A DNA stretch of 64,000 bases from an uncultured bacterium (GCA_937996685.1 CALKUP010000001.1:117571-181570); one strand, 5' to 3'; positions 1-53,900 are shown, counted from the stretch's first letter. A program made the numbers and translations. Notes: generated by a model not told the origin, from the sequence alone.

Positions 1-2
1 TT

Positions 3-455
3 TTGCCTGCACTGGCCGGCCTCCTGAATGTCGAATGTCAGCGAGTGCCGGCAAGGACTGCGTCGTCGCTGCGCTTCGTGATCGACTTTGACTACGCTGT
101 CACGGCCGGTGAGATCAACCGTGTTTTCGCGGATTTCGCGCAACATAACCCGGACTTGATGCACTTCGAACCGATCCCTGACGATCCTCAAGACAAGTCG
201 CTGTGGAGGCACAGTGGTCACTGCGTCGATCAGCGGTTCTGCGTCTACGTCGACGGACGTTTGACGCAGGTGATACGCCAGGGCAAGAGCGTGGTTGTTA
301 CGGCCTTTTATGACAACCGCGTGGGCTATACGTGGCAGGCGCTCCGCGTCGCCGACTTCTGGGCGGGCAAGCGGCTGGAGCTGGAGGGGCGTGGACTCGC
401 TCTCGAAGAGGTCGGACAGACCTACCCCAGTGCTCGTTCTCAACAACGAGAATAG
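3..455 (+). CDS. Hypothetical protein in GC-rich island A. The 5' end may be truncated by the window edge.
   Basis: The 150-aa ORF runs to the window start. Its GC-rich codon usage is unlike the backbone. No family was recognised. Confidence 0.3.
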   Translation: MPALAGLLNVECQRVPARTASSLRFVIDFDYAVTAGEINRVFADFAQHNPDLMHFEPIPDDPQDKSLWRHSGHCVDQRFCVYVDGRLTQVIRQGKSVVVTAFYDNRVGYTWQALRVADFWAGKRLELEGRGLALEEVGQTYPSARSQQRE

Positions 456-478
456 TCACTGCTTCTCAACGAACCGTA

Positions 479-568
479 CCCTCTCGGAGGCGATAGACAT
501 GCAACACACAGGTATCAACCCTGTACACATGTTAATCGCTTTCGAGACGCTTTTCATTGTGAATAATC
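479..568 (+). repeat. Copy 1 of a ~90-bp imperfect direct repeat (copy 2 at 1094-1183). It sits just downstream of ORF 3..455 and contains a GGAGG SD plus a small ORF at 499..573 (MQHTGINPVHMLIAFETLFIVNNH).
   Basis: The string cctctcggaggcgatagacatgcaacacacaggtatcaaccctgtacacatgttaatcgctttcgagacgcttttcattg recurs with about 5 transitions at 1094. GGAGG lies 8 nt upstream of the ATG. Confidence 0.7.
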
Positions 569-675
569 ATTGATTGTTCATAGCGAATAGTGAAATGGTC
601 TCTATATAATGAACACAATGAGGCTGAATATATTGCCTTGTTTATATTAACAAAACACTGTATGTTTTTTATAGA

Positions 676-1074
676 TTGTACCTTGGAGGTAGCGTGAAGC
701 AACCGACTGTGGATGAGTGCCAGTGGGCAATCCGGATGTTCAGCTGTAAGGAGTCTGATCGCTCGAAGCAGAAATGGCAGGAGCTCTTCCGCTGGTTCGA
801 GGAGGTGACGGATCAGTACAGGGGAGATCAAGAAATGGCCGAATGGGGGGAAAGGATCGCACGGTCCCTCCATCTGGAAGAAGGCCTGACTGAGCACCGC
901 CTCTGGCTCAAGATCTGTCAGGTGCTGTTGGCTAGAGCTGAAGAGTACTGGAAGGCTTTTGATGAAGCTAACCAGGCGTATCGGGGTAGTCCGCGGCGAA
1001 GGCTCCGGGATCAGTTGGGTCCCGGAGGTCGGGTCCTCCGACTGAATCAGATGTGGGAGCTGCTTAACAGGTAA
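676..1074 (+). CDS. Hypothetical protein in GC-rich island A. The start may instead be the GTG at 694, which follows a GGAGG.
   Basis: 132-aa ORF with GC-rich codons. The sequence ggaggtagcGTG lies at 685-696. It is followed immediately by repeat copy 2. Confidence 0.35.
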   Translation: MYLGGSVKQPTVDECQWAIRMFSCKESDRSKQKWQELFRWFEEVTDQYRGDQEMAEWGERIARSLHLEEGLTEHRLWLKICQVLLARAEEYWKAFDEANQAYRGSPRRRLRDQLGPGGRVLRLNQMWELLNR

Positions 1075-1093
1075 AAGATACGCAGCAACACGT

Positions 1094-1183
1094 CCCCTCG
1101 GAGGCGATAGACATGCAATACACAGGCATCAACCCTGTACACATGTTAATCGCTTTCGAGACGCTTTTCATTGCGGATAATGC
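1094..1183 (+). repeat. Copy 2 of the ~90-bp direct repeat. It includes a small ORF at about 1113..1211 (MQYTGINPVHMLIAFETLFIADNAVLSLVKCE) behind a GGAGG SD.
   Basis: About 94% identical to 479-568. The small ORF and SD are conserved, and the differences are mostly transitions. Confidence 0.7.
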
Positions 1184-1356
1184 TGTATTATCCTTAGTGA
1201 AATGCGAATAGATGACTTGTCCCCAGGATGTGCATAACAATGGGGATAACGTGTAAAAAAGGTGGAGAAGAAGGCAGTGTGATTTATACACAAAGGATAA
1301 AAAAGTGACTAAAATCAGCTCTTTTTACAGATATTGACAAATTTTGTAGTTATGCA

Positions 1357-1385
1357 TTGACAGTTATGCACAAAATGCGTATAAT
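1357..1385 (+). promoter_or_regulatory. Sigma70-type promoter (TTGACA-17-TATAAT) upstream of the rpoB leader.
   Basis: ttgaca at 1357-1362, a 17-nt spacer, and tataat at 1380-1385. A second ttgaca sits at 1335. It lies about 300 nt upstream of the rpoB ATG in an AT-rich leader. Confidence 0.5.
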
Positions 1386-1686
1386 CATTGAGATATTCAT
1401 GAATTTGAGCCAGAGTGTCTTGTACCGGTTTTTATCCGTCTGTCGAACGATATTTTCCTAGAAATAGTGAAAAACGTTCGAAAAAACACAATTTTCGTGA
1501 CACACGTCATTTCATAATACAACTGCACAATGAACCGAATCTTTCACAATACGAAAGATCCGGATTTTTGTGTTCTGCGCTGATTTTCGCAGAAAAAGCA
1601 GTATCATGAATAGATGTGTGCGGCGAAAAATAGTCCGTAGGGAAGTGCCTACAATTATATAACTAATTTTTTAAGGTTTACGCTCT

Positions 1687-4600: not shown

Positions 4601-5049
4601 AGATCCATCAACGTTCAATTGGGCCATACAGTCTTGTGACACAACAACCTCTCGGTGGTAAAGCACAATTTGGTGGACAACGTTTCGGAGAAATGGAAGT
4701 GTGGGCGTTGCAAGCATATGGCGCGGCATACACATTGCAAGAAATGTTGACAATTAAATCCGATGATGTTCCAGGTCGTTCAAAAGCATACGAAAGTATC
4801 ATTAAGAGCGAGCCGATCCGAATGCAAAATGTTCCAGAATCATTCAATGTCTTAGTTCGAGAATTGAAAGGCCTCGCCCTTGATGTCGAATTATTGAATG
4901 ATGACGGCGAAGCAATTGATGACCTTGAAGACAAGCCGAAATATGTTGCGCCACCGGAAGCAGCGAACGAATATTCTGAAGATGAAGGTATCATCAAAGT
5001 TGATCGGGACGCTGATATCGATGAGCCCGCTGAAGACGACTTGAAATAA
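1687..5049 (+). CDS. rpoB: DNA-directed RNA polymerase beta subunit.
   Basis: 1120 aa. It carries the hallmark rifampicin-region and catalytic motifs ([45 protein letters not shown]) and is followed directly by rpoC. Confidence 0.97.
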
Positions 5050-13536: not shown

Positions 13537-13585
13537 GTTGCAGGACAGAAGTTGGTGACGCTCACCATTTTCCGCCCTGCAACCT
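13537..13585 (+). other. Nested inverted-repeat structure (ggttgcagg...cctgcaacc enclosing ggtgacgctcacc) in the 5' UTR of the island-B gene.
   Basis: Outer 9-bp arms lie at 13537-13545 and 13577-13585. An inner palindrome GGTGA-CGC-TCACC sits between them. It is about 35 nt upstream of the GGAGG/ATG at 13621. Confidence 0.4.
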
Positions 13586-13620
13586 GATGTCTCAGGCTCT
13601 GTATGGGATTTGGAGGTCAC

Positions 13621-14025
13621 ATGACCAACACCGCCACCCCGATGTCCGCATTTGAGACCGTCAGCACCACCGAGGCGCCCGCGTGCGCGTCGCATCCCTT
13701 GACCGAGGGGGTGGTCCCCCACAACGCCAGCCCGCGCGAGCGCGCGTGGGCGGACTGGGTTCTCACCCAGGCCTTCCGCGCGGAGTTCCCGGCCGAAAAG
13801 GGCTGCGGGCAGGGCTACATGAAGAACTTGGGAAATCCCGGGTCGCGCGCGGTTCCGACAAGTGTCCGGACCGTATCTTCCCCGGGCATGACGCAGATCC
13901 GCCTGCTGACGGCGGAAGAGGTCGCTGTCCTGCGTGTCATCTGTGACATGCACGGTTACCCCAGCACCTCAACCAAGGTGCTGGACCCGGGCACCGAAGA
14001 CGCTCGGATCGAGATCCACTACTAG
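13621..14025 (+). CDS. Hypothetical protein in GC-rich island B. The start at the Met preceded by GGAGG is preferred over 13603.
   Basis: ggaggtcacATG gives GGAGG at spacing 4. Its GC-rich codons are unlike the flanking genes. The antisense ORF 13465..13953 is considered a GC artefact. Confidence 0.4.
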   Translation: MTNTATPMSAFETVSTTEAPACASHPLTEGVVPHNASPRERAWADWVLTQAFRAEFPAEKGCGQGYMKNLGNPGSRAVPTSVRTVSSPGMTQIRLLTAEEVAVLRVICDMHGYPSTSTKVLDPGTEDARIEIHY

Positions 14026-14322
14026 GATCTCCGAGCCCGGAGTAGACATCTCCGGATAACGAAACAAAACTGTCTCAATCGGTCGGCGGCGCAATTCTTC
14101 GGAATTCGCGTCGCTGACCTCTTCTTCTTTGCGCAGCTTGTGATCGTTGTAACACAAGGTGAATAAAGAAGCGGAAATTCCGCTGTACTTCTCCGTCTAG
14201 ATTTTTTCAGACAGAAGATATACCTAATATTAGTAATAAAAAATATTTTTTATACACACCGTTATATGCGTGTACGATGATATTTTGTATACTAACGGTT
14301 ATACATTAGTAAGATACTTTTT

Positions 14323-19163: not shown

Positions 19164-19422
19164 TTGATATACTCACAGTTTTGGTGCTTTCGTTGTCGCC
19201 AGCCTCATTGAAGAGGTGCTTGGAACCATCTAATATCACTTAATAATCTATTGACGCATTGCTGCTTTTGTGGCACTGTATTGAGCTTTCTTGCCGCAAG
19301 CAGGAAAGGTGTTCTTTGTCATGATATTTGATCAGGTTCGTGAAGATTGAGAAAAAGTTTCTTTGTTTTCGCGAGCCTGATCAATCCACATGAAGTGGAG
19401 AATATGGCTTATGGAGTTTCCT

Positions 19423-19806
19423 ATGCGCACTGTTTCCTTCCTTGAGCGCCATGATCGCAAGCTTCTCAGCCTCGAAGATCGGCAGTACCTGAGCCAGGTG
19501 TATGAAAATACAAGTACCGCTAGCGATGATTTTTTGCTCGGTTGTATACAGGCTGCGGCTGAAAAGAACGGCCTTAGTTTTGAGCAGGCGGTTGATGTCT
19601 TTGACCGGATAGTTGCCTGGTATAATTACGTAAACATCGACGGGGATGAGCTTGCTCAGATGATCGGAGGTGACATCCTGCGCCTTCTCCGAGAATCTGA
19701 ACAGGAACTCAAGGAGGAAGCCACTACCCTGCGGTGTGTCTTCGGCATGTTCGGCATCTGCGTCGTGTTGTTTGTCGTTTGGTTCATCCGGGTGGTGATT
19801 GGCTAG
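19423..19806 (+). CDS. Small C-terminally membrane-anchored hypothetical protein in the moderately GC-rich island C. The alternative ORF-track start is 19390.
   Basis: GGAG lies 6 nt before the ATG at 19423. The hydrophobic C-terminus is VFGMFGICVVLFVVWFIRVVIG. A near-coextensive antisense ORF (19381..19827, GTG start, no SD) is judged less likely. Confidence 0.35.
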   Translation: MRTVSFLERHDRKLLSLEDRQYLSQVYENTSTASDDFLLGCIQAAAEKNGLSFEQAVDVFDRIVAWYNYVNIDGDELAQMIGGDILRLLRESEQELKEEATTLRCVFGMFGICVVLFVVWFIRVVIG

Positions 19807-19865
19807 TTCCTGCTCGACTTGGTTCACGACGTTCCGCCGCCGCTCTAGACGAGAGCGCGACGCGG

Positions 19866-19909
19866 CAAAAAAAAGAAGAGGTTCGTTATTACAACGCGAC
19901 CTCTTCTTA
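19866..19909 (-). terminator. Rho-independent terminator for guaB (minus strand).
   Basis: A 10-bp stem aagaagaggt / acctcttctt is preceded on the plus strand by an A8 run, which is a T-run on the minus strand. Confidence 0.65.
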
Positions 19910-19952
19910 CATCTTCCATTGGACAGAGTGTAGTCTCTGTCTAGCGGATGGT

Positions 19953-29044: not shown

Positions 29045-29100
29045 ATGCAGCCTATTGTATCATAAAATTGTCTGTGTTAGGGTGTTTTTGGAGGTGAGTT

Positions 29101-29187
29101 ATGCCGTTTGGTCGGTCATTGGCAGAATTGACTGTGGTTATCGTAGTTCTGGTCGCCTTCGCGATGTACTGCGTGTCTCGGCCATGA
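29101..29187 (+). CDS. Tiny hydrophobic peptide 1 (28 aa, MPFGRSLAELTVVIVVLVAFAMYCVSRP) in GC-rich island D.
   Basis: A strong SD, GGAGGTG, ends 4 nt before the ATG. It has a single TM-like core. Its stop overlaps the next start as ATGA. Confidence 0.4.
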   Translation: MPFGRSLAELTVVIVVLVAFAMYCVSRP

Positions 29188-29315
29188 GCGGCGGGAACAT
29201 TCCGCATGGACTTGGCGACATCATCCTCGGGGTGGCTGTCTTCGTAGTTTTCGTGGCGGCGCTTTCTTGCGCTGGGTTCATGTATATGGTTGGGACTTTC
29301 TTCGGATTGTTCTGA
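29184..29315 (+). CDS. Tiny hydrophobic peptide 2 (43 aa, MSGGNIPHGLGDIILGVAVFVVFVAALSCAGFMYMVGTFFGLF), translationally coupled to peptide 1.
   Basis: ATGA start/stop overlap. It has a GxxxG-containing TM segment. It corresponds to the 3' part of ORF-track 28980..29315, whose 5' part overlaps the opposite-strand gene. Confidence 0.4.
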   Translation: MSGGNIPHGLGDIILGVAVFVVFVAALSCAGFMYMVGTFFGLF

Positions 29316-37366: not shown

Positions 37367-37599
37367 AAAACGTGGTGGTAGTCAGTTGTATATAAGGATA
37401 GATTTTTTGAAATAGTGCCTTAGTATAGTCCGATTTTTGTGATTGGTCAACTCTTTCTGGTTCAAGGAATAATTATTGACAGATAGGGTAAAAAATCAAC
37501 AAAGACGTATTTTTCAGATCCCATCGTTTCCTGTTATTGCACGCCTTGATTGCGCCTGCCAACACACAATACCTGTGTGTTTGTTCCTTGGAGTTCATC

Positions 37600-38184
37600 A
37601 TGATCCGTTTTGTTTCCGTAGCGCTGTTTTTCTGGCTCACCCTCTACAGCGCCTCTCCTGCGTGGGCTGGCGGTGGGTGGGGTATTCCAGTGAACCCGGA
37701 ACTCTGCGCTGAAGACGGCACGCCGATGGATGCTGATGGCGACGGCATCTTCACCCACATTGAAGACAACGACGGTGATGGCGTCTCGGTCTGCTACGAA
37801 GGCAACCACCTTGTGTGGGATCAGCCGGGTTGGGTGCAGTTCATGACCGCGAACTTCACGCGGATTCAGAACAAGCCGGGTGACCTTCAGTTGTACATGC
37901 TGCAGCACATGTACACGCCCTACCTCCTGGACTGGGTATATTTCTTCCAGGAGATGACAACGGTCCGGACTCCTGGAGGCGGTCTCGGTTATTCGTTTGC
38001 CGATGTCGAAGGAGATTGTGACGACAACGATCCGAACCGCTTTCCCGGCAACTGGGAGGTGATGTTCGACGGCGTCGACGCTGACTGCAACCCGATGAAC
38101 GAGGTCTGCATTCCTGCGATTGTTCCACCTGGTTGGCCGGGGTACGCCTGGGCTGTTGGGATGAAGTATTGGGACTGTCCGTGA
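37600..38184 (+). CDS. Secreted protein with a MopE-like putative metal-binding Cys/Asp motif (GC-rich island E). It is a paralog of 40661..41188.
   Basis: GGAG lies 6 nt before the ATG. The signal peptide is MIRFVSVALFFWLTLYSASPAWA. The motif GDCDDNDPNRFPGNWEVMFDGVDADCN resembles the myxobacterial MopE-type metal-binding repeat. DxDGDG stretches are present. The gene is GC-rich. Confidence 0.5.
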   Translation: MIRFVSVALFFWLTLYSASPAWAGGGWGIPVNPELCAEDGTPMDADGDGIFTHIEDNDGDGVSVCYEGNHLVWDQPGWVQFMTANFTRIQNKPGDLQLYMLQHMYTPYLLDWVYFFQEMTTVRTPGGGLGYSFADVEGDCDDNDPNRFPGNWEVMFDGVDADCNPMNEVCIPAIVPPGWPGYAWAVGMKYWDCP

Positions 38185-38302
38185 AATCTTTGTAGACCTT
38201 CAATGGTCGCTTGTGAGCGCTGCGCATTGTTTCACATTGCCACGCTCACATCTTTCTTTAGTATATTACGTTTATTATATACCATGACGTATATCTGTAT
38301 CC

Positions 38303-38878
38303 ATGTCGTTTACAGAATATGTCAGATCTGATACACACACCCTCATGTCAACAGCGCTATTACTCACATTATTTGAACAAGAATATGAATCTGTGTATCG
38401 ATTCATCTATTTTCGCGTGTCTCACAAAGAAACCGCAGAAGATCTTGTTTCAGTGATTTTTGAAAAAGCCGTAAAACATATTGATCGTTTTTCGAAGCAG
38501 GAAGGAGCAACGCCGCGTTCATGGCTCTTTACCATTGCTCGCAACACGCTGATTGATCATTACCGTTCGCAAAAATATATTGAACCACTGGATGATCACA
38601 CGGATCTCACAGACGAATCGCATGATGCGCTATTGTCTGACATCGATACGCAGATTGTTATGGAGAAAGTCTTTGAAGTTATTCCGCAATTATCACCGCG
38701 TGGACAAGAGTTGATTTTATTACGGTTCCAAGCTGATTTTTCCAATAAAGAAATTAGTCAGATTACCGGCCTCCATGAAAAAGTTGTCGCATCTGGAATC
38801 AGCAAGGCCATCCGTCGATTACAACAACTCATTATAGAATCCAAACAACAACCATCCATTGAAGAATCTCTTTTATGA
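38303..38878 (+). CDS. ECF-type sigma-70 family RNA polymerase sigma factor (copy 1).
   Basis: Region 2 is LVSVIFEKAVKHIDRFSKQEGATPRSWLFTIARNTLIDHYR. Region 4 is LILLRFQADFSNKEISQITGLHEKVVASGISKAIRRL. 191 aa. Confidence 0.8.
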   Translation: MSFTEYVRSDTHTLMSTALLLTLFEQEYESVYRFIYFRVSHKETAEDLVSVIFEKAVKHIDRFSKQEGATPRSWLFTIARNTLIDHYRSQKYIEPLDDHTDLTDESHDALLSDIDTQIVMEKVFEVIPQLSPRGQELILLRFQADFSNKEISQITGLHEKVVASGISKAIRRLQQLIIESKQQPSIEESLL

Positions 38879-40506
38879 AACCGATTACACCCCAACATTC
38901 ATCATTCGAAGAGCAGCTCACTCGTGCATTCCATGAGCAGAGTGTTCCTGAGCACAAAGCACATCGTCGTGCGGTGTTTCAGCGCTTGCAAGAAGCAGTT
39001 GCTGTTGAACACATATCGTACTCAGAGCGATTCCGTCACTGGGTGCGTCGTCGGTTTTTATGGGTGTCTGTATCCGCTTCAACGCTTGCGCTGGCTGGTA
39101 TTCTCGTTGTGTTTTTCGGCGCACCGGTTGCTGAGCAGTACATTGCTCAGCGCCAAGGAAATACAAATTCAATTTTAGACGCGCTGGCACCTCAAGAATT
39201 ACTTGCGGAGTCAATTCAAAATACATTTGCTGCAAACGATGGCATTCGTCATGTAATGTTTCATACGGTTCGTGAAGATGTGAACACTGACAAGACAACA
39301 TCAGAAGCAAAAGAAGTGACAGCGCGCACTGATCAGGAATATTATATTGCGCCAGATGCGTTTACTGGTTTTTTGCATAAAACAGGACCAAGCGTGCAAC
39401 AAGAGAAGAGTTATCGAATGACAAAGCTAAGCGCTGATACACAATCGATTGAAAATTGTGTCATCAACATCAATATGAAAAATGCTCAGTCAATAAAAAG
39501 TGCCAATGCAGAGTTATCTGGTGAGAATGTATGTGGGTTAATGGGGATTGAAGACTATGCAGGTTTTGCAGAAACACAACCAGCGCTTGATATCCAAGAT
39601 CTTTCATACAATACAGACCTTGATAGCGAGCAGATGTCATTTACAACCGCAGAGCCAATTGATCCTAAACAACTTGGTATTTTGATTGCGGAACCGTCTT
39701 TTGTGAAATATATTTCAGAGTTTATTGATGCACAAAATAATATTGCCTTTGCTCCAATTGCATTGTCTCCACTCGGGAATGTATCTGGAGCAATTGCCGA
39801 CCCTGAATGGAATGTGCCGGTGAATGGTCGATACAAACAATCCTTCGTGTATATGTTAGATGGGCGCTATGCACATGACACCTTAACAGAAGCAACGCAA
39901 ACGCCGGTCCGCATTTTTTCTGAAGTGCAATTACAATTTGTGCAGCTCAACACAGCACTTCTTGAAGCAACGACGCTTCAAGAAAACGGCTATGATCCAA
40001 AATTATTTTCAGCTGCATCTCAAGTGTTTCAAATCAAGTTTTCTGATGAATGGAAACTTGAGAGCGTGAATGCGCTCACGCAAACACCTGAGGACATTGC
40101 GCAGTTTAACGCACGTCGGTTGGCAACACGTAAAGAAATTTTTACAAACAATTCAGGTGAAACATTTTTTAACTACATTGCAGGAGGGTCGGCAGTGTTT
40201 GCGCAACTCCATGATGTGAAGCCTCGGGTAGAGGGGAATGAGTATGTGTATAGTGTCCAGCAGGAGTGGAATCCAGATAATCCTGATATGCATATGATTG
40301 GAACAACAGAGGTGCGTGTTGATAGTCAGACTCAGCTGTTAACGGCAATTATTGAGCGGTATGACTACCCAGAAACACAGCAAGCAACGGTCTACACAAC
40401 AACCTTCGATGCACTGAAAACAACCACAGATAATACAGACACGTTTTTTTCTGAGAAGGCATGGAAAGAGCGCGCCAAGGAGATTATAAATGACTCACGG
40501 TACTAG
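38875..40506 (+). CDS. Anti-sigma-factor-like single-pass membrane protein (copy 1).
   Basis: Its start overlaps the sigma gene's stop by 4 nt (ATGA). It has an N-terminal cytoplasmic segment, one TM helix (LWVSVSASTLALAGILVVFFGAPV) and an extracytoplasmic domain of about 450 aa. It is paralogous to 41884..43527. Confidence 0.5.
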   Translation: MKPITPQHSSFEEQLTRAFHEQSVPEHKAHRRAVFQRLQEAVAVEHISYSERFRHWVRRRFLWVSVSASTLALAGILVVFFGAPVAEQYIAQRQGNTNSILDALAPQELLAESIQNTFAANDGIRHVMFHTVREDVNTDKTTSEAKEVTARTDQEYYIAPDAFTGFLHKTGPSVQQEKSYRMTKLSADTQSIENCVININMKNAQSIKSANAELSGENVCGLMGIEDYAGFAETQPALDIQDLSYNTDLDSEQMSFTTAEPIDPKQLGILIAEPSFVKYISEFIDAQNNIAFAPIALSPLGNVSGAIADPEWNVPVNGRYKQSFVYMLDGRYAHDTLTEATQTPVRIFSEVQLQFVQLNTALLEATTLQENGYDPKLFSAASQVFQIKFSDEWKLESVNALTQTPEDIAQFNARRLATRKEIFTNNSGETFFNYIAGGSAVFAQLHDVKPRVEGNEYVYSVQQEWNPDNPDMHMIGTTEVRVDSQTQLLTAIIERYDYPETQQATVYTTTFDALKTTTDNTDTFFSEKAWKERAKEIINDSRY

Positions 40507-40660
40507 AATTGATAAAAAAGCCCTGAAATATGGGCTTTTTTGGTATTCATACGTACTTTTGCATATCCATCGTTGTAGTGTATGCAGTCGTGATTCGGCG
40601 ATTGTGTACCTTGAGATCACCTTTCAGCGACCAAGATCGCTCATTGCAACTGGAGTTCTC

Positions 40661-41188
40661 ATGCTTCCCATGTTTTTGGCATTCCTCGCAAACCACACCG
40701 ACCCGCAGATTTTCCAGGTGGTAGGCGACGCGCTTGTCACCGCTCCTTCGGATGGCTGCCTCATTGAGCAAAATGTCTGGGTCGACCTCGACGGCGACTT
40801 CCACTTCCAGCATTGGGAGGATCGGGACCTCGACGGCTACGGAAACTGCTACGACGAGCAGGGCCGAGTTGCCTGGATGTTTCCGGGTCTCGCTCGTGAG
40901 TTCACCGTGAATTTCGGTGACTACATGAACCACGCTGCGCAGGCACGTGCGCATTGGCCGTTGGGTCTCGCGATGCTCCCGATGAATGCTCCGGAGCAGT
41001 TCAATCTGCCCTGGACCATGCCGGGTTGGAGCTTCTGGTTTGATCCGATCACGCATCGGCAATACTTGAACTTCCAGGAAGCGATGGCGGGAGATTGTGA
41101 TGACAGCGATCCGAATCGATTCCCGTATAACCAGGCTGACGTGCCGGGTGACGGGTTCGACGAGAACTGCAGCCCCTTCGATGAGTAA
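40661..41188 (+). CDS. Secreted MopE-like metal-motif protein (GC-rich island F). It is a paralog of 37600..38184.
   Basis: GGAG lies 5 nt before the ATG. The ORF-track start at 40490 is AT-rich sequence overlapping the upstream gene, and GC-rich coding begins near 40660. The motif is GDCDDSDPNRFPYNQADVPGDGFDENCSP. Its architecture is similar to 37600. Confidence 0.5.
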   Translation: MLPMFLAFLANHTDPQIFQVVGDALVTAPSDGCLIEQNVWVDLDGDFHFQHWEDRDLDGYGNCYDEQGRVAWMFPGLAREFTVNFGDYMNHAAQARAHWPLGLAMLPMNAPEQFNLPWTMPGWSFWFDPITHRQYLNFQEAMAGDCDDSDPNRFPYNQADVPGDGFDENCSPFDE

Positions 41189-41367
41189 AAAGCCTCTCAT
41201 GTGAGAGGTCAGAGTGACACGCTCTGTGATCCGTGCCCTGTTGCGCTTTGCTATCAATAGTTGAGCGCAGCAGATTTTCTTAGTACAAATCCGCGTTCAT
41301 GTTTTTAGAATGCATATTGTACACACCATACTCTGCAGAGTATACTTCACATAATTAACCTATCAGC

Positions 41368-41877
41368 ATGACGCTTGAACAAATCGCCGCGCTATTCGAC
41401 ACGTATCACAAACCGATTTATCGTTTTGTGTATTTACGTGTGAATCACATGGAAACAACCGAAGATTTGGTCTCTGCGATTTTTGAAAAAGTCGTTCGGC
41501 ATTATGATGCGCTTGCGCCAAAAAATGACGAGCTCGCATTTCGCAAATGGATTTACACCATTGCACGCAATACAGTGATCGACTACTATCGCACACAAAA
41601 GCAGACAGACGATATCGCGGATTATGATGTCGTTGACACGGCGCAGATGCCAGACATTGCACTCGACACCGCGATGAATCTGGAAATGCTGCAAAGCCAT
41701 CTTGGGGCTCTGACTGACCGACAACGTGAAGTGCTCTTGTTGCGATACCAGTCCGATTTTTCAAATGTGGAAATTGCGGAGATGCTCGACATTGATCAAA
41801 AAACAGTCAGCAGTATCTTGAGTCAAGCGATCAAACGTTTAAAAAACAGTGTTCAATCCGTTCAATCAATTGTGTAA
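41368..41877 (+). CDS. ECF-type sigma-70 family sigma factor (copy 2).
   Basis: Region 2 is LVSAIFEKVVRHYDALAPKNDELAFRKWIYTIARNTVIDYYR. Region 4 is VLLLRYQSDFSNVEIAEMLDIDQKTVSSILSQAIKRL. 169 aa. Confidence 0.8.
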   Translation: MTLEQIAALFDTYHKPIYRFVYLRVNHMETTEDLVSAIFEKVVRHYDALAPKNDELAFRKWIYTIARNTVIDYYRTQKQTDDIADYDVVDTAQMPDIALDTAMNLEMLQSHLGALTDRQREVLLLRYQSDFSNVEIAEMLDIDQKTVSSILSQAIKRLKNSVQSVQSIV

Positions 41878-41883
41878 TTTTTT

Positions 41884-43527
41884 ATGAAACACCAACCATC
41901 ACAATTTGAAGAATCACTCGAGCAGCTATTACAGGCTACTCCGATTCCAGAACGAGCAGACCACACTGCAGAGTTGCGTGCACGCGTGTTGAACGACTAT
42001 CGTGAACGCCAGGTCCGTTATGCTGAACCAAAATTATCTTTTATGAATACAGTATTTCCACGTCTCTTTCTTGCAACCAGCGGCGCCGTTTCTGTCCTTG
42101 CAATAGGATTTGTCATTTTCAACCAACCGGTTGTTCAAACACAAGTCGCAAAACTGCGCGGCAATAGCAATGTAAACACTCCAACACATTCACTGCTATC
42201 TCAGCTGTCACCGAAAGAAGTACTAGCTGATTCACTAGCCGCAACAATCGGCGAGTTGAATGACACATCACAGTCGCACTATGTACATATGAAAACAACG
42301 TCAAAAAGTACAGATGGCACGATTGACTCGACAATTGATTTTCAATCATGGAAAGAGGGGCTTAATGTGCGCGTCAAAACAACGGATACAGATCACGTGA
42401 ATAATACAACTGGCATGACAACGCAACTCACTTCGTATGAGGCTGACGAAACGTCATGGAATTGTGTTGCTGATACAACCGGGACGGTGAGTGGCCCAGG
42501 TTACGATAATAATTCAGGTGTCTGCTTTCACTATGGAGCTCCTCAAGAATATAATCGTCAAGTATATACAAGTGCTCCAAGTCTCAGTTTAGAGAGTGTA
42601 TCCGCAACAGCTGCCCGTGCTGGAGACACGGTCGGTCCGACACAGCGAATCACAGTGACATTTCGTACAACGCAGCCATTATCGAATGAGGCGCTGATTG
42701 AATCCGTCAATTCTGATATTGCTGATTTAGGTGATGTCGTTTCCGGTGGTAACTTTTTTAACCATTCAGATGGATTGCTGCCGACAGAATATAATGCAAA
42801 AAAAGTGGGCGATCAATATGAGTACCGTGTTGTTATGGATCAAGCGTATGATATGCGAGGCGATGCTCCGACTGGATCTCAGACTTCGAAAGATACGCGA
42901 CGAAATTACATTCAAATTCTTGATGGCAATGCACATAGTCCGGTCTATCAAGTGAATATTGATACTGGTGATATCACGGAATTAACCACCGTTCAATTAC
43001 AACAATTAGTGTCCGCACAGCAACAAGCAAAGCGCGAAAAAGCACAACAGCAAGCAGGGCAAGTCACGCTGGCATCTGGATATGATCCATATGCTGATTT
43101 GCAAAACATCTATACAACCATGGAAAAAAATGGCCAAATTATAGATAGTGCAGAAGTGCAAGGTGATGATACAACTTTGTTGAAAGTTCATTATCGATAC
43201 ACAGAAATATACGGACCGCAGATTCCACAAGAAGAGGTTGATCGTCGTCTCAAAGAATCTCCATATACTGAAGTGAATATTTTTGTGGATTTAAAGACAA
43301 AAGAAGTGGTGCGTGTTGAGTATGTATTGCTGCCTTGGACACAAAACACATATACCACAGAGATTATTGAGTCAGCGTCCGTGGGCCCAGAAGAGTCAGG
43401 GCAATTGCTTGGTCCAGATCCGTTTACAATCGATACATGGAAAAACGAAACCCGTGATCTCTATAGCGAGCTCTATCCAGATCGTGGTGAGATTCAATTC
43501 ACCATGAAAGATATCGGCGAGTATTAA
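41884..43527 (+). CDS. Anti-sigma-factor-like single-pass membrane protein (copy 2).
   Basis: Same architecture as copy 1, with the TM helix LFLATSGAVSVLAIGFVIFNQPVV. It lies 6 nt after the sigma gene. Confidence 0.5.
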   Translation: MKHQPSQFEESLEQLLQATPIPERADHTAELRARVLNDYRERQVRYAEPKLSFMNTVFPRLFLATSGAVSVLAIGFVIFNQPVVQTQVAKLRGNSNVNTPTHSLLSQLSPKEVLADSLAATIGELNDTSQSHYVHMKTTSKSTDGTIDSTIDFQSWKEGLNVRVKTTDTDHVNNTTGMTTQLTSYEADETSWNCVADTTGTVSGPGYDNNSGVCFHYGAPQEYNRQVYTSAPSLSLESVSATAARAGDTVGPTQRITVTFRTTQPLSNEALIESVNSDIADLGDVVSGGNFFNHSDGLLPTEYNAKKVGDQYEYRVVMDQAYDMRGDAPTGSQTSKDTRRNYIQILDGNAHSPVYQVNIDTGDITELTTVQLQQLVSAQQQAKREKAQQQAGQVTLASGYDPYADLQNIYTTMEKNGQIIDSAEVQGDDTTLLKVHYRYTEIYGPQIPQEEVDRRLKESPYTEVNIFVDLKTKEVVRVEYVLLPWTQNTYTTEIIESASVGPEESGQLLGPDPFTIDTWKNETRDLYSELYPDRGEIQFTMKDIGEY

Positions 43528-51735: not shown

Positions 51736-51867
51736 AGTTCAAGCAGTGTAGCACAGTTTTGCTTTTCCCGAAAAATGCCCGAATAGGCATTGACTTTTTG
51801 CCCAAAATATGGTAACTAATAAGGAGTGCGGAATGCAATTTCGCATTTTTGCCCTTTTACAAAAAAC

Positions 51868-51929
51868 AGGATTGTTGCAGTTGGTTGACTCTAATATTAG
51901 TCAATAATCAATCAACCGCAGCAATCCTG
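51868..51929. promoter_or_regulatory. Nested inverted repeats in a divergent intergenic region. This is a candidate operator.
   Basis: The outer arms are AGGATTGTTGC at 51868-78 and GCAGCAATCCT at 51919-29. The inner palindrome TTGAC-TC-TAATATTA-GTCAA lies at 51885-51904. Confidence 0.4.
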
Positions 51930-52011
51930 AATATCGCATGCATCTGACAGATCCGTCGGGTGTGTGCAACGCATCGAACTGCCCAGCATTGACTGGGTTT
52001 TGGAGTCTCTC

Positions 52012-53835
52012 ATGATGAAGCTCATCTCTCGGAATGCCTTCGCGATCCTCTTCGTCACCCTCGCGGTGGCGTGCGGCTTTCTCCCTGATACGATCGGGGG
52101 AACCGGGCTGCACCCGGTCGCGGCCGACACGGTCGACACGACGGACGACGTCCGCACTGACGACACGCCGTCGTCGGACATCGTCGGTGTTCACACGACG
52201 AATACCAACGTCGGCAACACCGACACGGTCGACACGACGGACGACACCGACATCACGCCGGACACCGGCACGGACCTCCTCCCTGTCACCGGCGACACGC
52301 CGGCTGACACGGACATCGTCGACACGACGGACACGACGGACACGACGGACACGACCGAGCCCGTCGACACCGACGTGACGTGGTCCGAGACGGATCCACC
52401 CGCAGATGACCAGTTCCCGCCCTACGCGTTCGTAGGCTACGGGCACTACCAGTTCTGTGGCGACCCCGCGATCCCGTGGGAGCCCTGTCTTCAGAACCGG
52501 GTGGTCTACGGACGCCCGCTCCAGGAGCGTCCTGCCGCCTGTGTTCCTGGAAACCAGTACGCTCCTGGGGAGCTTTCGAGCGACGTGCTCGTCTGCTTTC
52601 TGGACTACTTCCGCGGCCAGATCCACGGTGTCATCTCTGTTTTTAACCCGGCGACGCACGCCTGGTCCGACCTGCCGAATGGCGGGCCTACCAACTTCGT
52701 GCAAGCGGGACTCGTCGAGCAGCGTGGTGCTGTTCAAACGAGTCAAGTCAGCTCGTTCCTCTTTGCTCAGCTCGAGCCGGGGAGCGAGCAGATCTCGCTG
52801 ATCGTCCGGAGCCCCAACGGCCCGCTCATGCGGCGCGGGGCAAACGGCGTTTGGTCGCAAGACCGCGCCTTCTTCACTGCCTGGCAGGCCGCCGGCATGG
52901 CGCAGATGAGCGAGTCGATCGTCCGGGACTTTGACCGCAACGGTCTCCCGGACATCGGGATGATGCGCTGCCTCCAAGGCAACTGCGACCCGGTGATTTT
53001 CTACCAGACGGCGCCTGGCGCCTGGCAGAGCTCAATGAACGTGACCCGCATCCCGTACAAGTCTTCGGATGTGTACGAGTGGGACGCGATTCAGGACTCT
53101 GCAACCGGCGCTTGGACGCTCGTCGCTGCTGGCGGTTTCACCGACATGCAGCGCGCCGGCTCCAGCGGCATCTTCGTAGAATACGGGACCGGGCCCGACG
53201 GCTTCCCGGCGTACGTCGAGGCCAATGGTACGAATGCCGCCGGAATGGCCGGAATGGGTGTGACCCATTTCGACCCCCGCGGCATCGACGCCGCTGGCAA
53301 CTCCACGCCGTTCCCGGACGGTCAACCGGAGATCATCGTCTCCAGTCAAACCCAGTGTCCAGAGATGTTGCAAAGCCTCTTCGGCTGGGCTGGGGTGGAT
53401 TCGTGGGTCAACCTGACCCCGAACTACTCCAACTGGATCCAGCAAGGAGGGCGCTTTCGCCCTGGCTGCTGGGAAGACGCGACCCCGGAAACTGAGGATC
53501 TCGCCTGGGGCGTGGAACTCGTCCTTGAGGACTTGCTGCTCGTCGCCAAGGGCGACGACGGCCGAGTTCTTCCGACGGGTCACTGCGACCGAGCCGAGTG
53601 CCCTCAGGACGGCGAGCCGATCATCGGCTACAAGCCGTGGCACGGACGCTTCTGGGCGTATCCGCTCGGGCGCCTGCAGTTTGTCGACCCCTTGGGGAAC
53701 GACATTCTGCTGGGCAACCGGCGGACGCTCGACGTCCACTACGTCACCGGCGCCGACGGCGTCACCCGCACCGTCGTCGTGACGGGTGGCACCTGGGAAA
53801 ACGGCAATCCTGAAGTTTGGCTGCTCGAGGAGTAA
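52012..53835 (+). CDS. GC-rich lipoprotein-like secreted protein with Thr-Asp repeats (island G).
   Basis: GGAG lies 6 nt before ATGATG. The lipoprotein-like signal is MMKLISRNAFAILFVTLAVAC. Repeats of the TTDTTDTTD / VDTTDD type come from tandem gtcgacacgacggac DNA units. An FG-GAP-like segment (DRNGLPDIGM) is present. GC is strongly elevated. Long minus-strand ORFs here are artefacts. Confidence 0.55.
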   Translation: MMKLISRNAFAILFVTLAVACGFLPDTIGGTGLHPVAADTVDTTDDVRTDDTPSSDIVGVHTTNTNVGNTDTVDTTDDTDITPDTGTDLLPVTGDTPADTDIVDTTDTTDTTDTTEPVDTDVTWSETDPPADDQFPPYAFVGYGHYQFCGDPAIPWEPCLQNRVVYGRPLQERPAACVPGNQYAPGELSSDVLVCFLDYFRGQIHGVISVFNPATHAWSDLPNGGPTNFVQAGLVEQRGAVQTSQVSSFLFAQLEPGSEQISLIVRSPNGPLMRRGANGVWSQDRAFFTAWQAAGMAQMSESIVRDFDRNGLPDIGMMRCLQGNCDPVIFYQTAPGAWQSSMNVTRIPYKSSDVYEWDAIQDSATGAWTLVAAGGFTDMQRAGSSGIFVEYGTGPDGFPAYVEANGTNAAGMAGMGVTHFDPRGIDAAGNSTPFPDGQPEIIVSSQTQCPEMLQSLFGWAGVDSWVNLTPNYSNWIQQGGRFRPGCWEDATPETEDLAWGVELVLEDLLLVAKGDDGRVLPTGHCDRAECPQDGEPIIGYKPWHGRFWAYPLGRLQFVDPLGNDILLGNRRTLDVHYVTGADGVTRTVVVTGGTWENGNPEVWLLEE

Positions 53836-53864
53836 ACCTCGTACTACTGCAACCAGCTTCACAC

Positions 53865-53900
53865 ACCGCGGAAAACTACATGGTTGACCGCGGTTTTTTC
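53865..53900 (+). terminator. Rho-independent terminator after island G.
   Basis: Stem accgcgg / ccgcggt with a 15-nt loop, followed by a T6 run. Confidence 0.6.

What the first reader, a model, noticed from the sequence alone, without database searches (positions are those of the whole stretch)
1..53900. Compositional mosaic: at least seven GC-rich, SD-bearing islands in an AT-rich, SD-poor chromosome
The islands are at about 1-1190, 13537-14165, 19390-19920 (weaker), 29090-29320, 37600-38190, 40660-41200 and 51960-53870. By eye they are clearly GC-richer than the flanking genes (roughly 55-65% against about 40%). Every gene in them is preceded by a canonical GGAG(G) Shine-Dalgarno at 4-6 nt spacing. 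The resident genes checked (rpoB, rpoC, guaA, ftsK, recA, groES, uvrA, secG, rnj, both ECF sigma genes, both anti-sigma genes) have no SD. All island products look exported or membrane-associated. Shared distinct composition and a different translation-initiation style point to horizontally acquired cargo from a high-GC donor. The donor could be a host or partner organism if this is an epibiont or symbiont. No integrase, transposase, tRNA or flanking repeat accompanies them, except in island A.
Basis: seen in the sequence. Interest (0 to 1): 0.75.

Follow-up and report, generated by a model that had tools for sequence, protein, structure and literature searches.

The report
Foreign GC-rich genes in hotspots
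An AT-rich bacterium, probably an ultra-small Patescibacteria-type one, that starts most of its own genes without a ribosome-binding site carries at least seven short, GC-rich, ribosome-binding-site-bearing genes between its core genes; comparison with sister genomes shows they are foreign genes acquired repeatedly at the same few insertion hotspots, a well-documented kind of event.

Summary
Seven units (1-1190, about 13540-14165, 19390-19920, 29090-29315, about 37490-38270, 40596-41328, 51953-53900) have GC3 of 0.56-0.85, against 0.27-0.52 for 33 resident genes. All seven testable island genes have GGAG(G) 4-6 nt before the start codon, against 1 of 33 residents (p = 4e-7). Residents look leaderless: a -10-like hexamer sits a few nucleotides before the ATG.

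The horizontal-transfer reading is supported.
- A sister genome (housekeeping proteins 84-98% identical) and three other assemblies show the islands are accessory.
- Island F is a clean 733-nt insertion. B and C lie in a 9.2-kb block the sister lacks.
- The sister holds different GC-rich, SD-led genes, partly in the same slots.
- The 607-aa lipoprotein has only three database homologs, and the two with retrievable DNA lie in uniformly 72-75% GC contigs.
- AT/GC junctions recur in independent assemblies, so this is not a chimera.

New details:
- Two slots hold same-family but very divergent genes in the two genomes.
- E and F (paralogs) lie downstream of an ECF-type promoter motif.
- In island A one gene is bracketed by a conserved two-hairpin repeat, like a cassette.
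- Three of nine products are soluble, not exported.

The donor and the integration mechanism remain unknown. This is a good example of a known phenomenon.

The parts
1..455 (+). Island A, gene A1: the 3' part of a GC-rich GAPDH-like gene (GC 0.60, GC3 0.70) that runs off the left edge of the window.
   Evidence: NCBIfam GAPDH-I E = 1.5e-7 and Pfam Gp_dh_C. Composition. The sister genome has a GC-rich GAPDH-like gene in the same slot, but it is only 25% identical.
478..594 (+). Two-hairpin repeat element, copy 1, immediately 3' of A1.
   Evidence: Direct repeat family D5, 86% identity. Folds at -51.6 kcal/mol, z = -7.4. A single copy is conserved in the sister genome at the island/rpoB boundary. 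Its stem sequence differs but it folds the same way, z = -6.4.
685..1074 (+). Island A, gene A2: SD GGAGG at 685-689, GTG start at 694, 126-aa soluble helical protein, GC3 0.67.
   Evidence: No homolog among 1.84 billion representative proteins. No family hit.
1094..1208 (+). Two-hairpin repeat element, copy 2, 3' of A2. Homology to the sister genome resumes here and runs on into the rpoB leader.
   Evidence: z = -6.6; L091 9434-17216 matches window 1094-8914.
13540..14165 (+). Island B: structured 5' UTR, SD GGAGG at 13612-13616, gene 13621-14025 (134 aa, soluble, GC 0.65, GC3 0.85), then 3' hairpins.
   Evidence: (UTR z = -3.6). Only a self-hit among 5.8 billion proteins. Both junctions are reproduced at 100% identity in an independent ENA contig, L085. 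It lies in the 10773-19953 block that the sister genome lacks.
19390..19920 (+). Island C (weak): SD GGAG at 19413-19416, gene 19423-19806 (127 aa, C-terminal transmembrane anchor, GC3 0.60), hairpin terminator at about 19868-19910.
   Evidence: GC alone is not significant. It lies in the block absent from the sister genome.
29090..29315 (+). Island D (smallest): SD GGAGG at 29090-29094, then two overlapping small membrane-peptide ORFs, 29101-29187 (28 aa) and 29184-29315 (43 aa), GC3 0.59 and 0.66.
   Evidence: GC alone is not significant. No relative covers this slot.
37505..37528 (+). ECF-type promoter motif ACGTA-N15-CGTT upstream of E.
   Evidence: Only 3 matches in the window against 0.57 expected. 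The same motif precedes sigma1 and sigma2 in the sister genome and precedes E in L086.
37590..38184 (+). Island E gene: SD GGAG at 37590-37593, ATG at 37600, 194-aa secreted protein with a signal peptide and a C-terminal MopE-type Cys/Asp motif, GC3 0.70.
   Evidence: (PF11617, E = 1.6e-6). 36% identical to F. No other homolog. Nearly identical in L086, where it sits behind a different GC-rich gene.
38213..38268 (+). Hairpin followed by a T-run ending in TTTCTTTAGTAT, 3' of E.
   Evidence: The same tail follows F, G and gene X of L086.
38287..40506 (+). Resident context: a second copy of the promoter motif (38287-38310), then ECF sigma1 (annotated 38303-38878; the likely true start is Met15 at 38345) and anti-sigma1 (38875-40506).
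   Evidence: AT-rich and SD-less.
40551..40574 (+). ECF-type promoter motif ACGTA-N15-CGTT. In the sister genome it belongs to sigma2; here it lies upstream of F.
40596..41328 (+). Island F, a clean 733-nt insertion relative to the sister genome: SD GGAG at 40652-40655, gene 40661-41188 (175 aa, MopE-type motif, GC3 0.72), and a hairpin with TTTTCTTAGTAC tail at about 41240-41286.
   Evidence: blastn synteny: L087 6294-7733 matches window 39160-40595, and L087 7748-8398 matches window 41329-41979. Alignment. An ortholog is present in a third genome, L092 (86% aa identity, GC3 0.73).
41368..43527 (+). Resident context: ECF sigma2 (41368-41877) and anti-sigma2 (41884-43527), paralogous to the sigma1 module.
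   Evidence: Sigma2 is 95% identical to the sister copy.
51953..53905 (+). Island G: SD GGAG at 52002-52005, gene 52012-53835 (607-aa lipoprotein with lipobox LAVAC, an Asp/Thr-rich linker and a roughly 470-aa beta-rich domain; GC 0.64, GC3 0.82), and a hairpin with TTTTTTCTTAGTAT tail at 53866-53905.
   Evidence: Three homologs, 49-60% identical, with the same architecture. The two retrievable ones lie in 72-75% GC contigs. The sister genome has a 32-36% identical FG-GAP family gene in the same slot.

Best explanation
WHAT IT IS. The window is chromosome from an AT-rich bacterium (GC3 about 0.35), probably a Patescibacteria/CPR-type organism. Its own genes are mostly transcribed as leaderless or very short-leader mRNAs. 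Between its conserved core genes sit at least seven short units of one or two genes each. These units were acquired horizontally, in several separate events, from bacteria with high-GC genomes.

WHAT EACH UNIT CARRIES. Each unit keeps the marks of its origin:
- GC-rich synonymous sites
- a 5' untranslated region of its own, with a canonical GGAG(G) Shine-Dalgarno 4-6 nt before the start codon
- usually its own hairpin terminator

WHERE THEY LAND (shown). The units occupy a small number of intergenic slots that act as hotspots: upstream of rpoB, uvrA|sigma1, anti-sigma1|sigma2, and uvrD|giant surface protein. Sister genomes carry other GC-rich, SD-led genes in the same slots, or nothing.

HOW THEY ARE EXPRESSED (inferred). 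A foreign gene inserted downstream of a resident promoter is transcribed with a leader, so it needs its own SD to be translated. Survivors are therefore those that brought one. The cell can use SDs, because one resident gene (the histone-like gene) keeps a conserved GGAGG.

The paralogs E and F sit behind an ACGTA-N15-CGTT motif that precedes the ECF sigma genes in all relatives. They are therefore probably expressed as members of those sigma regulons.

HOW THEY ARRIVED (inferred, weakest step). Entry was probably by uptake of foreign DNA and illegitimate or site-directed recombination, without an element-encoded integrase. In island A the two-hairpin repeat that brackets gene A2 suggests cassette-like insertion at a structured site.
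For: 1. Bimodal synonymous composition and codon usage. Amino-acid-driven GC bumps are excluded.

2. SD in 7/7 island genes against 1/33 residents, p = 4e-7. Residents, and the genes of relatives, have TANNNT or TATAAT-like hexamers 6-12 nt before the ATG.

3. Composition-normalised tetranucleotide usage: residents against sister residents r = 0.97; islands against residents 0.69; islands against the 73% GC contig L082 0.78; sister islands against L082 0.82.

4. Accessory distribution.
- F is a clean 733-nt indel with flanks 81-91% identical.
- B and C lie in a 9.2-kb block absent from the sister genome.
- The uvrA|sigma1 slot exists as E (window), X (sister) and X+E (L086).
- The sister genome has a GC-rich gene between rpoC and the deaminase-like gene that the window and L093 lack.
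- Relatives with uvrC 52-58% identical have no islands.

5. Direction of transfer. G's homologs P0002 and P0003 sit in uniformly 72-75% GC contigs with GC3 of 0.90-0.94, whereas G is atypical for its own genome.

6. Recency. Synonymous sites between the window and the sister genome are near saturation: fourfold-site identity is 0.37-0.67. A simple relaxation estimate puts a gene resident since the split at GC3 of about 0.6 or lower. Yet G, G', X, B, and the sister's NhaD and GAPDH-like genes are at 0.80-0.85.

7. G is 61/50/49% identical to the outside homologs but only 32-36% identical to the sister's same-slot gene.

8. Not an artefact. The junctions are reproduced in L085 (100% over 813 nt), L086, L087, L091 and L092.

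9. The promoter motif has only 3 hits in 64 kb, all at E, sigma1 and F, and is present before sigma1 and sigma2 in the sister genome.
Against: - Four of the five island protein families searched (A2, B, and the E/F pair) have no homolog outside this lineage in 5.8 billion and 1.84 billion protein sets. For these, no donor can be named.
- Part of that absence may be technical. Gene callers put the genes on the wrong strand in the sister islands, so lineage-internal homologs are missing from protein databases.
- Two slots hold same-family but very divergent GC-rich genes in the two genomes: GAPDH-like at 25% and FG-GAP lipoprotein at 32-36%. E and F are paralogs at equivalent positions of paralogous sigma modules. 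Independent random insertions do not readily explain this.
- Several AT-rich resident genes are just as divergent between the genomes (anti-sigma2 29%, g46822 35%, g45334 39%). Low identity alone therefore does not prove xenology.
- The DNA of the closest G homolog (P0001, 60%) could not be read.
- No integrase, transposase, tRNA or target-site duplication was found, so the integration mechanism is unknown.
- The amelioration argument assumes that low resident GC3 reflects mutation bias.
Confidence: 0.8

Rival explanations
1. The GC-rich genes are old residents of the lineage, inherited vertically at fixed positions. They evolve fast and are kept GC-rich by a local force. That force could be selection on codon usage tied to SD-dependent translation or export, or GC-biased gene conversion at recombination hotspots.
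For: The same families occupy the same slots in the two sister genomes: GAPDH-like upstream of rpoB and FG-GAP lipoprotein beside uvrD. E and F are 36% identical paralogs at equivalent places in sigma modules that are themselves 41% identical. F and its ortholog in L092 both keep GC3 of 0.72-0.73. AT-rich lineage-specific genes are equally divergent between the genomes. Three-taxon distances for G, G' and P0002 can be fitted by a long G' branch.
Against: - F, B, C, E, X and the sister's 105-aa gene are present or absent between close genomes with clean boundaries.
- G is closer to genes in 72-75% GC organisms (49-61%) than to the sister's same-slot gene (32-36%).
- Island tetranucleotide usage resembles the high-GC contigs at least as much as the host backbone.
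- To my knowledge (not checked here), reported GC-biased gene conversion effects in bacteria are a few points of GC3, not 30-50 points.
- More distant relatives lack the islands.
Confidence: 0.08
2. The islands are gene cassettes moved by a site-specific recombination system that acts on structured DNA sites, comparable to an integron or to a cluster of attC sites lacking an integrase. This is a mechanism of arrival and is compatible with a foreign origin.
For: In island A each of two same-strand, SD-led ORFs is followed by an 86% identical two-hairpin element of about 115 nt. The sister genome has one copy of the element at the same boundary and lacks A2, so A2 plus one element behaves as an inserted unit. 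The hairpins are kept although the stem sequences differ, and the short ORF inside the element is not conserved. The uvrA|sigma1 slot exists as E, X, or X+E.
Against: - Only three copies are known.
- They lack the canonical attC R-box pair (RYYYAAC ... GTTRRRY), judged by reading the sequence.
- No tyrosine recombinase lies in the window or in 10 kb upstream of the sister's island.
- The element is absent from islands B-G.
- RNAalifold found no formally compensatory pair, because of an indel in the alignment.
- The element could instead be a terminator or insulator ahead of the rpoB leader.
Confidence: 0.15
3. The donor is not a cellular partner. It is a high-GC phage, plasmid or other extrachromosomal element that infects this lineage and leaves fragments behind.
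For: The units are small single genes, many of them orphans, as is typical of mobile-element cargo. They sit at hotspots and their content turns over quickly.
Against: - None of A2, B, C, E, F or G hits PHROGs; only the GAPDH-like A1 matches an unknown-function family, phrog_21942 (E = 1.1e-6).
- G has no relatives in IMG/VR, and the island A repeat has no match there.
- There are no structural, replication or integrase genes.
- G's homologs sit beside ordinary chromosomal-looking genes in the high-GC contigs.
- Elements that replicate in an AT-rich host usually resemble the host's composition (general knowledge).
Confidence: 0.07
4. The mosaic is an assembly or binning artefact, with reads from a high-GC organism joined into an AT-rich contig.
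For: The source is a metagenome-assembled contig (267,582 bp). The composition switches are abrupt.
Against: - Switches fall exactly at gene boundaries, with SDs, promoters and terminators in register.
- The same junctions occur in other assemblies and samples: L085 at 100% identity, L086, and F in L092 at 78% nucleotide identity.
- The sister genome has its own islands in the same slots.
Confidence: 0.01

Closest known systems
Genomic islets at integration hotspots between core genes (the classical horizontally acquired island recognised by atypical GC and codon usage)
   Same: Atypical GC3, codon and tetranucleotide usage. Sporadic presence among close relatives. The same few intergenic slots are reused with different cargo in different genomes. 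Cargo is enriched in surface, secreted and small membrane proteins. GC3 is graded (0.56-0.85), as expected for different ages or donors.
   Different: The units are very small (0.25-1.9 kb, one or two genes). They have no tRNA, integrase, transposase or direct-repeat boundary. The contrast extends to the mode of translation initiation, SD-led against leaderless. In two slots the alternative cargo belongs to the same protein family.
Horizontal transfer and genomic islands reported in Patescibacteria/CPR genomes (PMC12455944)
   Same: That study reports hundreds of genomic islands and individually transferred genes in groundwater Patescibacteria, with up to 13% of genome length attributed to transfer and donors from diverse phyla. 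The present window is a concrete instance of this, if the CPR assignment is right.
   Different: There most transfers were between Patescibacteria, and very recent ones escaped detection. Here the cargo is compositionally far from the recipient (GC3 up to 0.85 against about 0.35). It appears recent and comes from outside the lineage.
Integron gene cassettes and attC clusters without an integrase (CALINs)
   Same: Applies to island A only. Same-strand ORFs with their own SD are each followed by a long imperfect hairpin of about 60 nt plus a second hairpin. One ORF-plus-hairpin unit is present in one genome and absent in the sister.
   Different: No IntI-type recombinase was seen. There is no canonical R''/R' box consensus. 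Only two copies are in the window and one in the sister. The other islands have no such site.
ECF sigma / anti-sigma modules with co-regulated neighbouring genes
   Same: E and F each lie directly upstream of an ECF sigma plus anti-sigma pair, behind a bipartite motif (ACGTA-N15-CGTT) that precedes the sigma genes in all relatives. This is the arrangement expected for an autoregulated ECF promoter.
   Different: The co-located genes are compositionally foreign and accessory, whereas the sigma and anti-sigma genes are native in composition. The motif's function as a promoter is inferred, not shown, and it does not match the common GGAAC...CGT consensus at its upstream half.

Membership tests
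Horizontally acquired genomic island | Composition (GC3, codon usage, oligonucleotide usage) departs from the host backbone. | tested here: met
   GC3 0.56-0.85 against 0.27-0.52. Codon log-likelihood ratio is bimodal. Tetranucleotide r = 0.69 against 0.97 for backbone against sister backbone.
Horizontally acquired genomic island | Patchy presence among closely related genomes, with conserved flanks. | tested here: met
   F is a clean 733-nt indel. B and C lie in a block absent from the sister genome. E, X and X+E are alternative haplotypes of one slot. More distant relatives have no islands.
Horizontally acquired genomic island | Closest homologs lie in a lineage whose genome matches the island's composition. 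| tested here: inconclusive
   Met for G: homologs lie in 72-75% GC contigs. Not testable for A2, B, E and F, which have no homologs. A1, C and D were not searched.
Horizontally acquired genomic island | Mobility marks: integrase or transposase, tRNA target, direct-repeat boundaries. | tested here: not met
   No tRNA. No recombinase domain in the ORFs scanned. Only island A has a repeat. This feature is common in islands but not obligatory.
Integron cassette array / CALIN | attC sites: imperfect inverted repeats with R''-L''...L'-R' boxes (RYYYAAC / GTTRRRY) 3' of each ORF. | tested here: inconclusive
   Long imperfect hairpins lie 3' of both ORFs (z = -7.4 and -6.6) and are conserved in the sister genome. 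However, only GTTAATC (one mismatch to GTTRRRY) is present and there is no matching RYYYAAC, by inspection. No attC covariance model was available.
Integron cassette array / CALIN | Integron integrase (IntI) with attI and Pc next to the array. | tested here: not met
   None in the window. None in the 10 kb upstream of the sister's island (LexA, Cas4-like, S8 peptidase and Mur ligase only).
ECF sigma regulon member (E, F) | The gene lies downstream of the promoter recognised by the adjacent ECF sigma. | tested here: inconclusive
   A conserved bipartite motif occurs only before E, sigma1 and F in the window (3 hits against 0.57 expected), and before sigma1 and sigma2 in the sister genome. Promoter activity is not testable here.
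FG-GAP / ASPIC-UnbV beta-propeller surface proteins (G) | FG-GAP repeats detectable by profile. | tested here: inconclusive
   G itself has no Pfam, NCBIfam or PDB hit. Its 32-36% identical same-slot relative G' hits FG-GAP_3 at 2e-9 and weakly hits UnbV_ASPIC. The AlphaFold model is too poor to use (pLDDT 46.5).
MopE-type putative metal-binding motif proteins (E, F) | PF11617 motif above the gathering score. | tested here: met
   E scores 28.6 bits against a cut-off of 27. F scores 22 bits, below the cut-off, but it aligns to E across the motif. Only the 30-residue motif is shared with the family; the rest of the protein is orphan.
Assembly chimera | Junctions unique to one assembly and not respecting gene structure. 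| tested here: not met
   Junctions are reproduced in L085, L086, L087, L091 and L092, and they coincide with SDs and terminators.

The most novel reading that the evidence does not exclude
The lineage receives a continuing stream of genes from one kind of high-GC partner, possibly the host of an epibiont. These genes go into a handful of fixed landing slots. A gene already in a slot may be repeatedly replaced by a same-family version from the current partner. Examples are the GAPDH-like genes at 25% identity and the FG-GAP lipoproteins at 32-36% identity, in genomes whose housekeeping proteins are 84-98% identical. At least one slot would use a structured two-hairpin DNA site as an integrase-independent, or remotely encoded, cassette-insertion site. 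If so, the islands record the partner's identity, and they reveal a gene-capture system not described in these organisms.
Probability: 0.15. Interest if true: 0.7.

Novelty: new member of a known kind. Interest (0 to 1): 0.4.

Why it matters
Compositionally foreign islets are textbook, and transfer into Patescibacteria is documented. The finding therefore does not change what is known. It has three points of value.

1. It is an unusually clean natural contrast. Every foreign gene is SD-led, in a genome whose own genes are leaderless-style. It is therefore a convenient system for asking how a leaderless-dominated translation apparatus handles SD-led mRNAs, and which foreign genes can be expressed.

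2. The islands are recent, surface-directed, and reused at the same slots. If the organism is an epibiont, they may point to the partner lineage. Finding near-identical homologs in co-occurring high-GC genomes would be a direct way to predict a host for an uncultured bacterium.

3. There is a practical warning. Gene callers trained on the AT-rich backbone put several island genes on the wrong strand in three related assemblies, so such cargo is systematically missing from protein databases.

Tried and rejected
- Genome-collection scan with uvrA. This used the single genome scan without finding the source or a close relative.
- Exact look-ups of window proteins (recA; P0004) found no contig.
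- The metagenome scan with uvrC found only two distant relatives. They served as island-free outgroups. Close relatives came only from the 90% identity cluster members.
- Rfam at gathering score for the whole window, and at E <= 1 for 1-1700, gave nothing.
- PHROGs, PADLOC, NCBIfam and PDB sequence searches of island proteins gave nothing beyond GAPDH-like for A1, an unknown-function PHROG for A1, and the MopE motif.
- IMG/VR scans for the island A repeat and for the G family gave nothing.
- The AlphaFold model of G from a 4-sequence alignment had mean pLDDT 46.5, so I ran no fold search.
- TTTCTTAGTA as an island boundary or attachment site. It follows E, F, G and gene X of L086, and the two exact copies in the window are both at island ends. 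It is absent from the sister's islands. Resident terminators end in similar T-run plus (A/G)GT tails. It is most likely just this organism's terminator tail, so I left it as unexplained.
- The short SD-led ORF inside the island A repeat as a conserved peptide. I rejected this because the peptide diverges after 9 residues in the sister genome while the hairpins are kept.
- RNAalifold on the three repeat copies showed no compensatory pairs, because an indel misaligned the 3' arm. I used single-sequence folds instead.
- E and F as one ancient in-place tandem duplication together with the sigma modules. This is unlikely. The sister genome has both sigma modules but neither E nor F, and GC3 of 0.70-0.72 should not survive divergence to 36% identity in an AT-rich genome.
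The protein was obtained through cluster membership instead.

Full report

Yes. The window is 44.5% GC.

I ran a maximal-segment scan against a block-shuffle null whose 95th percentile is 18.0.
- Far above chance: 5-436, 13572-14055, 37634-38160, 40684-41246 and 51953-53871.
- Borderline: 685-1106.
- Not significant on GC alone: the two 'weaker' islands at 19.6 kb and 29.2 kb.

The decisive measure is synonymous composition. After I corrected the starts to the SD-led start codons, island genes have GC3 of 0.56-0.85. The 33 resident genes have 0.27-0.52. A leave-one-out codon-usage likelihood ratio is cleanly bimodal.

Three other GC bumps come from amino-acid composition and are not islands: the Arg/Gly-rich N-terminal extension of RNase J, the Ala/Pro-rich g45334, and g10732. 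Their GC1 and GC2 are high but their GC3 is low. A Wzy-like gene (32252-33634) is intermediate, with GC3 of 0.52.

**2. Translation signals.**

All seven island genes whose start is in the window have GGAG(G) 4-6 nt before the start codon. Only 1 of 33 residents has one, the histone-like gene 48909-49469. Fisher p = 4e-7. TTGGAGGT occurs three times on the + strand, each time as an island SD.

Residents are not merely SD-poor. Many have a TATAAT-like or extended -10 hexamer 6-12 nt before the ATG, for example TGTTATAAT-N9-GTG at 53966 and TGCTACACT-N9-ATG at uvrD. This is the signature of leaderless or near-leaderless mRNAs. The same style is seen in all relatives retrieved. The one resident SD is conserved in the sister genome, so SD-dependent initiation is presumably available.

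**3. What the islands encode.**

- A1 is the C-terminal part of a divergent GAPDH-like protein.
- A2 (126 aa) and B (134 aa) are soluble proteins with no homolog anywhere.
- C is a 127-aa tail-anchored protein.
- D is two overlapping small membrane peptides.
- E (194 aa, signal peptide) and F (175 aa) are 36% identical paralogs. Each ends in a MopE-type Cys/Asp motif. They have no other homolog among 5.8 billion proteins.
- G is a 607-aa lipoprotein with an Asp/Thr-rich linker and a beta-rich domain.

**4. Where G comes from.**

G has only three homologs, 49-60% identical, with the same lipoprotein-linker-domain architecture. The two whose DNA could be fetched lie in contigs that are uniformly 72-75% GC, and the genes themselves have GC3 of 0.90 and 0.94. 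G is therefore native-looking there and atypical here, which gives the direction of transfer. The phylum of those contigs could not be determined.

**5. Relatives.**

The source contig (267,582 bp) could not be retrieved. uvrA best hits of 65-67% are to Patescibacteria MAGs, only marginally above Bacillota, so the CPR assignment is tentative.

Two distant relatives, with uvrC 52-58% identical, are 38% GC throughout and have no islands. In one of them uvrA directly abuts uvrC.

Cluster membership then revealed a close sister genome, GCA_964492735.1, plus fragments from three other assemblies. Housekeeping proteins are 84-98% identical to the sister. Fourfold synonymous sites are only 37-67% identical, which is close to saturation.

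**6. What the sister genome shows**

(a) F is a clean 733-nt insertion (window 40596-41328) between flanks that are 81% and 91% identical. A third genome, L092, has an F ortholog in the same place (86% aa identity, GC3 0.73).

(b) B and C lie in a 9.2-kb block (10773-19953) that the sister genome lacks. There, guaB abuts the deaminase-like gene.

(c) The uvrA|sigma1 slot holds E in the window. In the sister genome it holds a different GC-rich secreted gene, X (328 aa, GC3 0.81, SD GAGG). In a further strain, L086, it holds an X homolog followed by a nearly identical E.

(d) The uvrD|giant-protein slot holds G in the window. In the sister genome it holds a 90-aa SD-led gene plus G' (674 aa, GC3 0.83, FG-GAP repeats), which is only 32-36% identical to G.

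(e) The slot upstream of rpoB holds a GAPDH-like gene in both genomes, but the two are only 25% identical. The sister genome adds a GC-rich NhaD antiporter.

(f) The sister genome has a GC-rich SD-led gene between rpoC and the deaminase-like gene. The window and L093 lack it.

The phenomenon is thus lineage-wide, the cargo is accessory and turns over, and a few slots are reused.

**7. Foreign or home-grown?**

Composition-normalised tetranucleotide usage gives these correlations:
- the two backbones against each other: r = 0.97
- islands against their own backbone: 0.69
- islands against the high-GC contig L082: 0.78
- sister islands against L082: 0.82

A simple relaxation estimate uses a resident equilibrium GC3 of about 0.33 and at least 0.35 synonymous substitutions per site per lineage since the split, derived. 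Under it, a gene resident since the split should now be at about 0.6 or below, even if it started at 0.95. Yet G, G', X, B and the sister's NhaD and GAPDH-like genes are at 0.80-0.85. That points to acquisition after the split. The spread from 0.56 to 0.85 fits different ages or donors.

This argument assumes that the low resident GC3 reflects mutation bias. That is the main escape route for the rival view that the genes are old residents kept GC-rich.

**8. Not an artefact.**

Switches coincide with SDs and terminators. Both junctions of B are reproduced at 100% identity over 813 nt in an ENA contig. E, F and the sister's islands give independent junctions in other assemblies.

**9. How E and F are wired.**

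A bipartite motif, ACGTA-N15-CGT(T/C), occurs only three times in the 64-kb window, against 0.57 expected: before E, before sigma1 and before F.

In the sister genome, which lacks E and F, the same motif precedes sigma1 and sigma2. F was therefore inserted between sigma2's motif and sigma2. E carries its own copy of the motif.

I infer that this is the autoregulatory ECF promoter, and that E and F are expressed as part of these sigma regulons. This is not shown. The alignment also suggests that sigma1 really starts at Met15 (38345).

**10. Island A looks cassette-like.**

A1 and A2 are each followed by an 86% identical element that folds into two long hairpins, with z = -7.4 and -6.6. The sister genome has a single copy at the island/rpoB-leader boundary and no A2.

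The sister's copy folds the same way (z = -6.4), although its stem sequence differs: GCGAU/AUCGC becomes GCGGC/GCCG. The short ORF inside the element is not conserved. A2 plus one element thus behaves as an inserted unit.

The element resembles an integron attC site in position and shape. It lacks the canonical R-boxes, no recombinase is nearby, and only three copies are known. I do not file it as an integron.

**11. Unexplained.**

- Two slots carry same-family but very divergent GC-rich genes in sister genomes. Either there were independent acquisitions with some targeting or seeding effect, or differential loss from ancestral arrays, or very fast evolution of old residents. Several AT-rich genes are equally divergent (29-39%).
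- Four island protein families have no homolog at all.
- E, F, G and gene X of L086 end in hairpin plus TTT(C)TTAGTA(T/C), but the sister's islands do not.

**12. Comparison with what is known, and verdict.**

This is a set of small horizontally acquired islets at integration hotspots. Transfer and genomic islands in Patescibacteria are documented (PMC12455944). It is a new member of a known kind.

It is of moderate interest for three reasons. The contrast between foreign SD-led genes and native leaderless genes is very clean. The islets have possible use as a host or partner tracer. Island A contains a cassette-like element.

The host-as-donor idea is untested, and the claim that all products are exported is not correct.

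Noticed in passing
window, all resident gene starts (e.g. 53966, 49528-51735 minus strand, 29355, 32252-33634 minus strand); also L083, L084, L087, L089: Resident genes have TATAAT-like or extended -10 hexamers 6-12 nt before the start codon and no SD. This suggests a genome dominated by leaderless mRNAs, and the style is shared by all relatives retrieved.
   Followed up: partly
window 48909-49469 (-): A Lys/Ala-rich histone H1/Hc2-like gene is the only resident with a canonical GGAGG. The SD is conserved in the sister genome although the proteins are only 48% identical.
   Followed up: partly
L087 4368-5408 and 19013-21160; L091 7009-9137; L092 389-1036: In three related public assemblies the gene calls on the GC-rich islands are on the wrong strand: their GC3 is lower than their overall GC, and the SD-led ORFs lie opposite. 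The real island proteins are therefore missing from protein databases, which weakens 'no homolog' results.
   Followed up: yes
window 10773-19953: A 9.2-kb block is absent from the sister genome. It contains a GNAT-like 625-aa protein, a TrmB-family regulator, island B, two unknown proteins of about 800 aa (one with HTH motifs) and island C. It has no recognisable mobility or defence genes.
   Followed up: partly
window 41884-43527, 45334-48837, 38303-38878 against L087: Several AT-rich, native-looking genes are extremely divergent between the two sister genomes: anti-sigma2 29%, g46822 35%, g45334 39%, sigma1 51%. They sit next to genes at 84-98%. This suggests allele replacement or very fast evolution of envelope-related genes.
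   Followed up: no
window 38287-38345: The annotated sigma1 start (38303) is probably wrong. Alignment to sigma2 and to the sister's 169-aa sigma1 begins at Met15 (38345), and the promoter-like motif overlaps the annotated ATG.
   Followed up: partly
window 38255-38265, 41277-41286, 53898-53907; L086 about 270-290: Four GC-rich units end with a hairpin followed by TTT(C)TTAGTA(T/C). The two exact TTCTTAGTA copies in the window are both at island ends. The motif is absent from the sister's islands, and its meaning is unclear.
   Followed up: partly
window 61452-61850: RNase J has an N-terminal extension of about 130 aa rich in Arg, Gly, Pro and Asn. It makes a local GC bump with normal GC3.
   Followed up: no
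window 32252-33634 (-): The Wzy/O-antigen-ligase-like gene has intermediate GC3: 0.52 overall and 0.55-0.62 in its central third. It may be an older or mosaic acquisition.
   Followed up: no
L085 about 985-1001 and 814-984: The ENA contig that reproduces island B ends in an Illumina adapter sequence. Its last 170 nt or so diverge from the window. At coverage 1.9 this is probably a chimeric read end rather than a strain variant.
   Followed up: no
L086 404-450 against window 37600-37640: E is essentially identical between two assemblies except for the signal-peptide codons, which differ sharply. This suggests recombination or replacement confined to the N-terminus.
   Followed up: no
window 53966-59230: A 1754-aa protein has internal repeats of about 267 nt (families D3 and D6). 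Its sister ortholog carries Big_6, Big_13 and beta-helix domains. It is a giant surface protein lying next to the island G hotspot.
   Followed up: no
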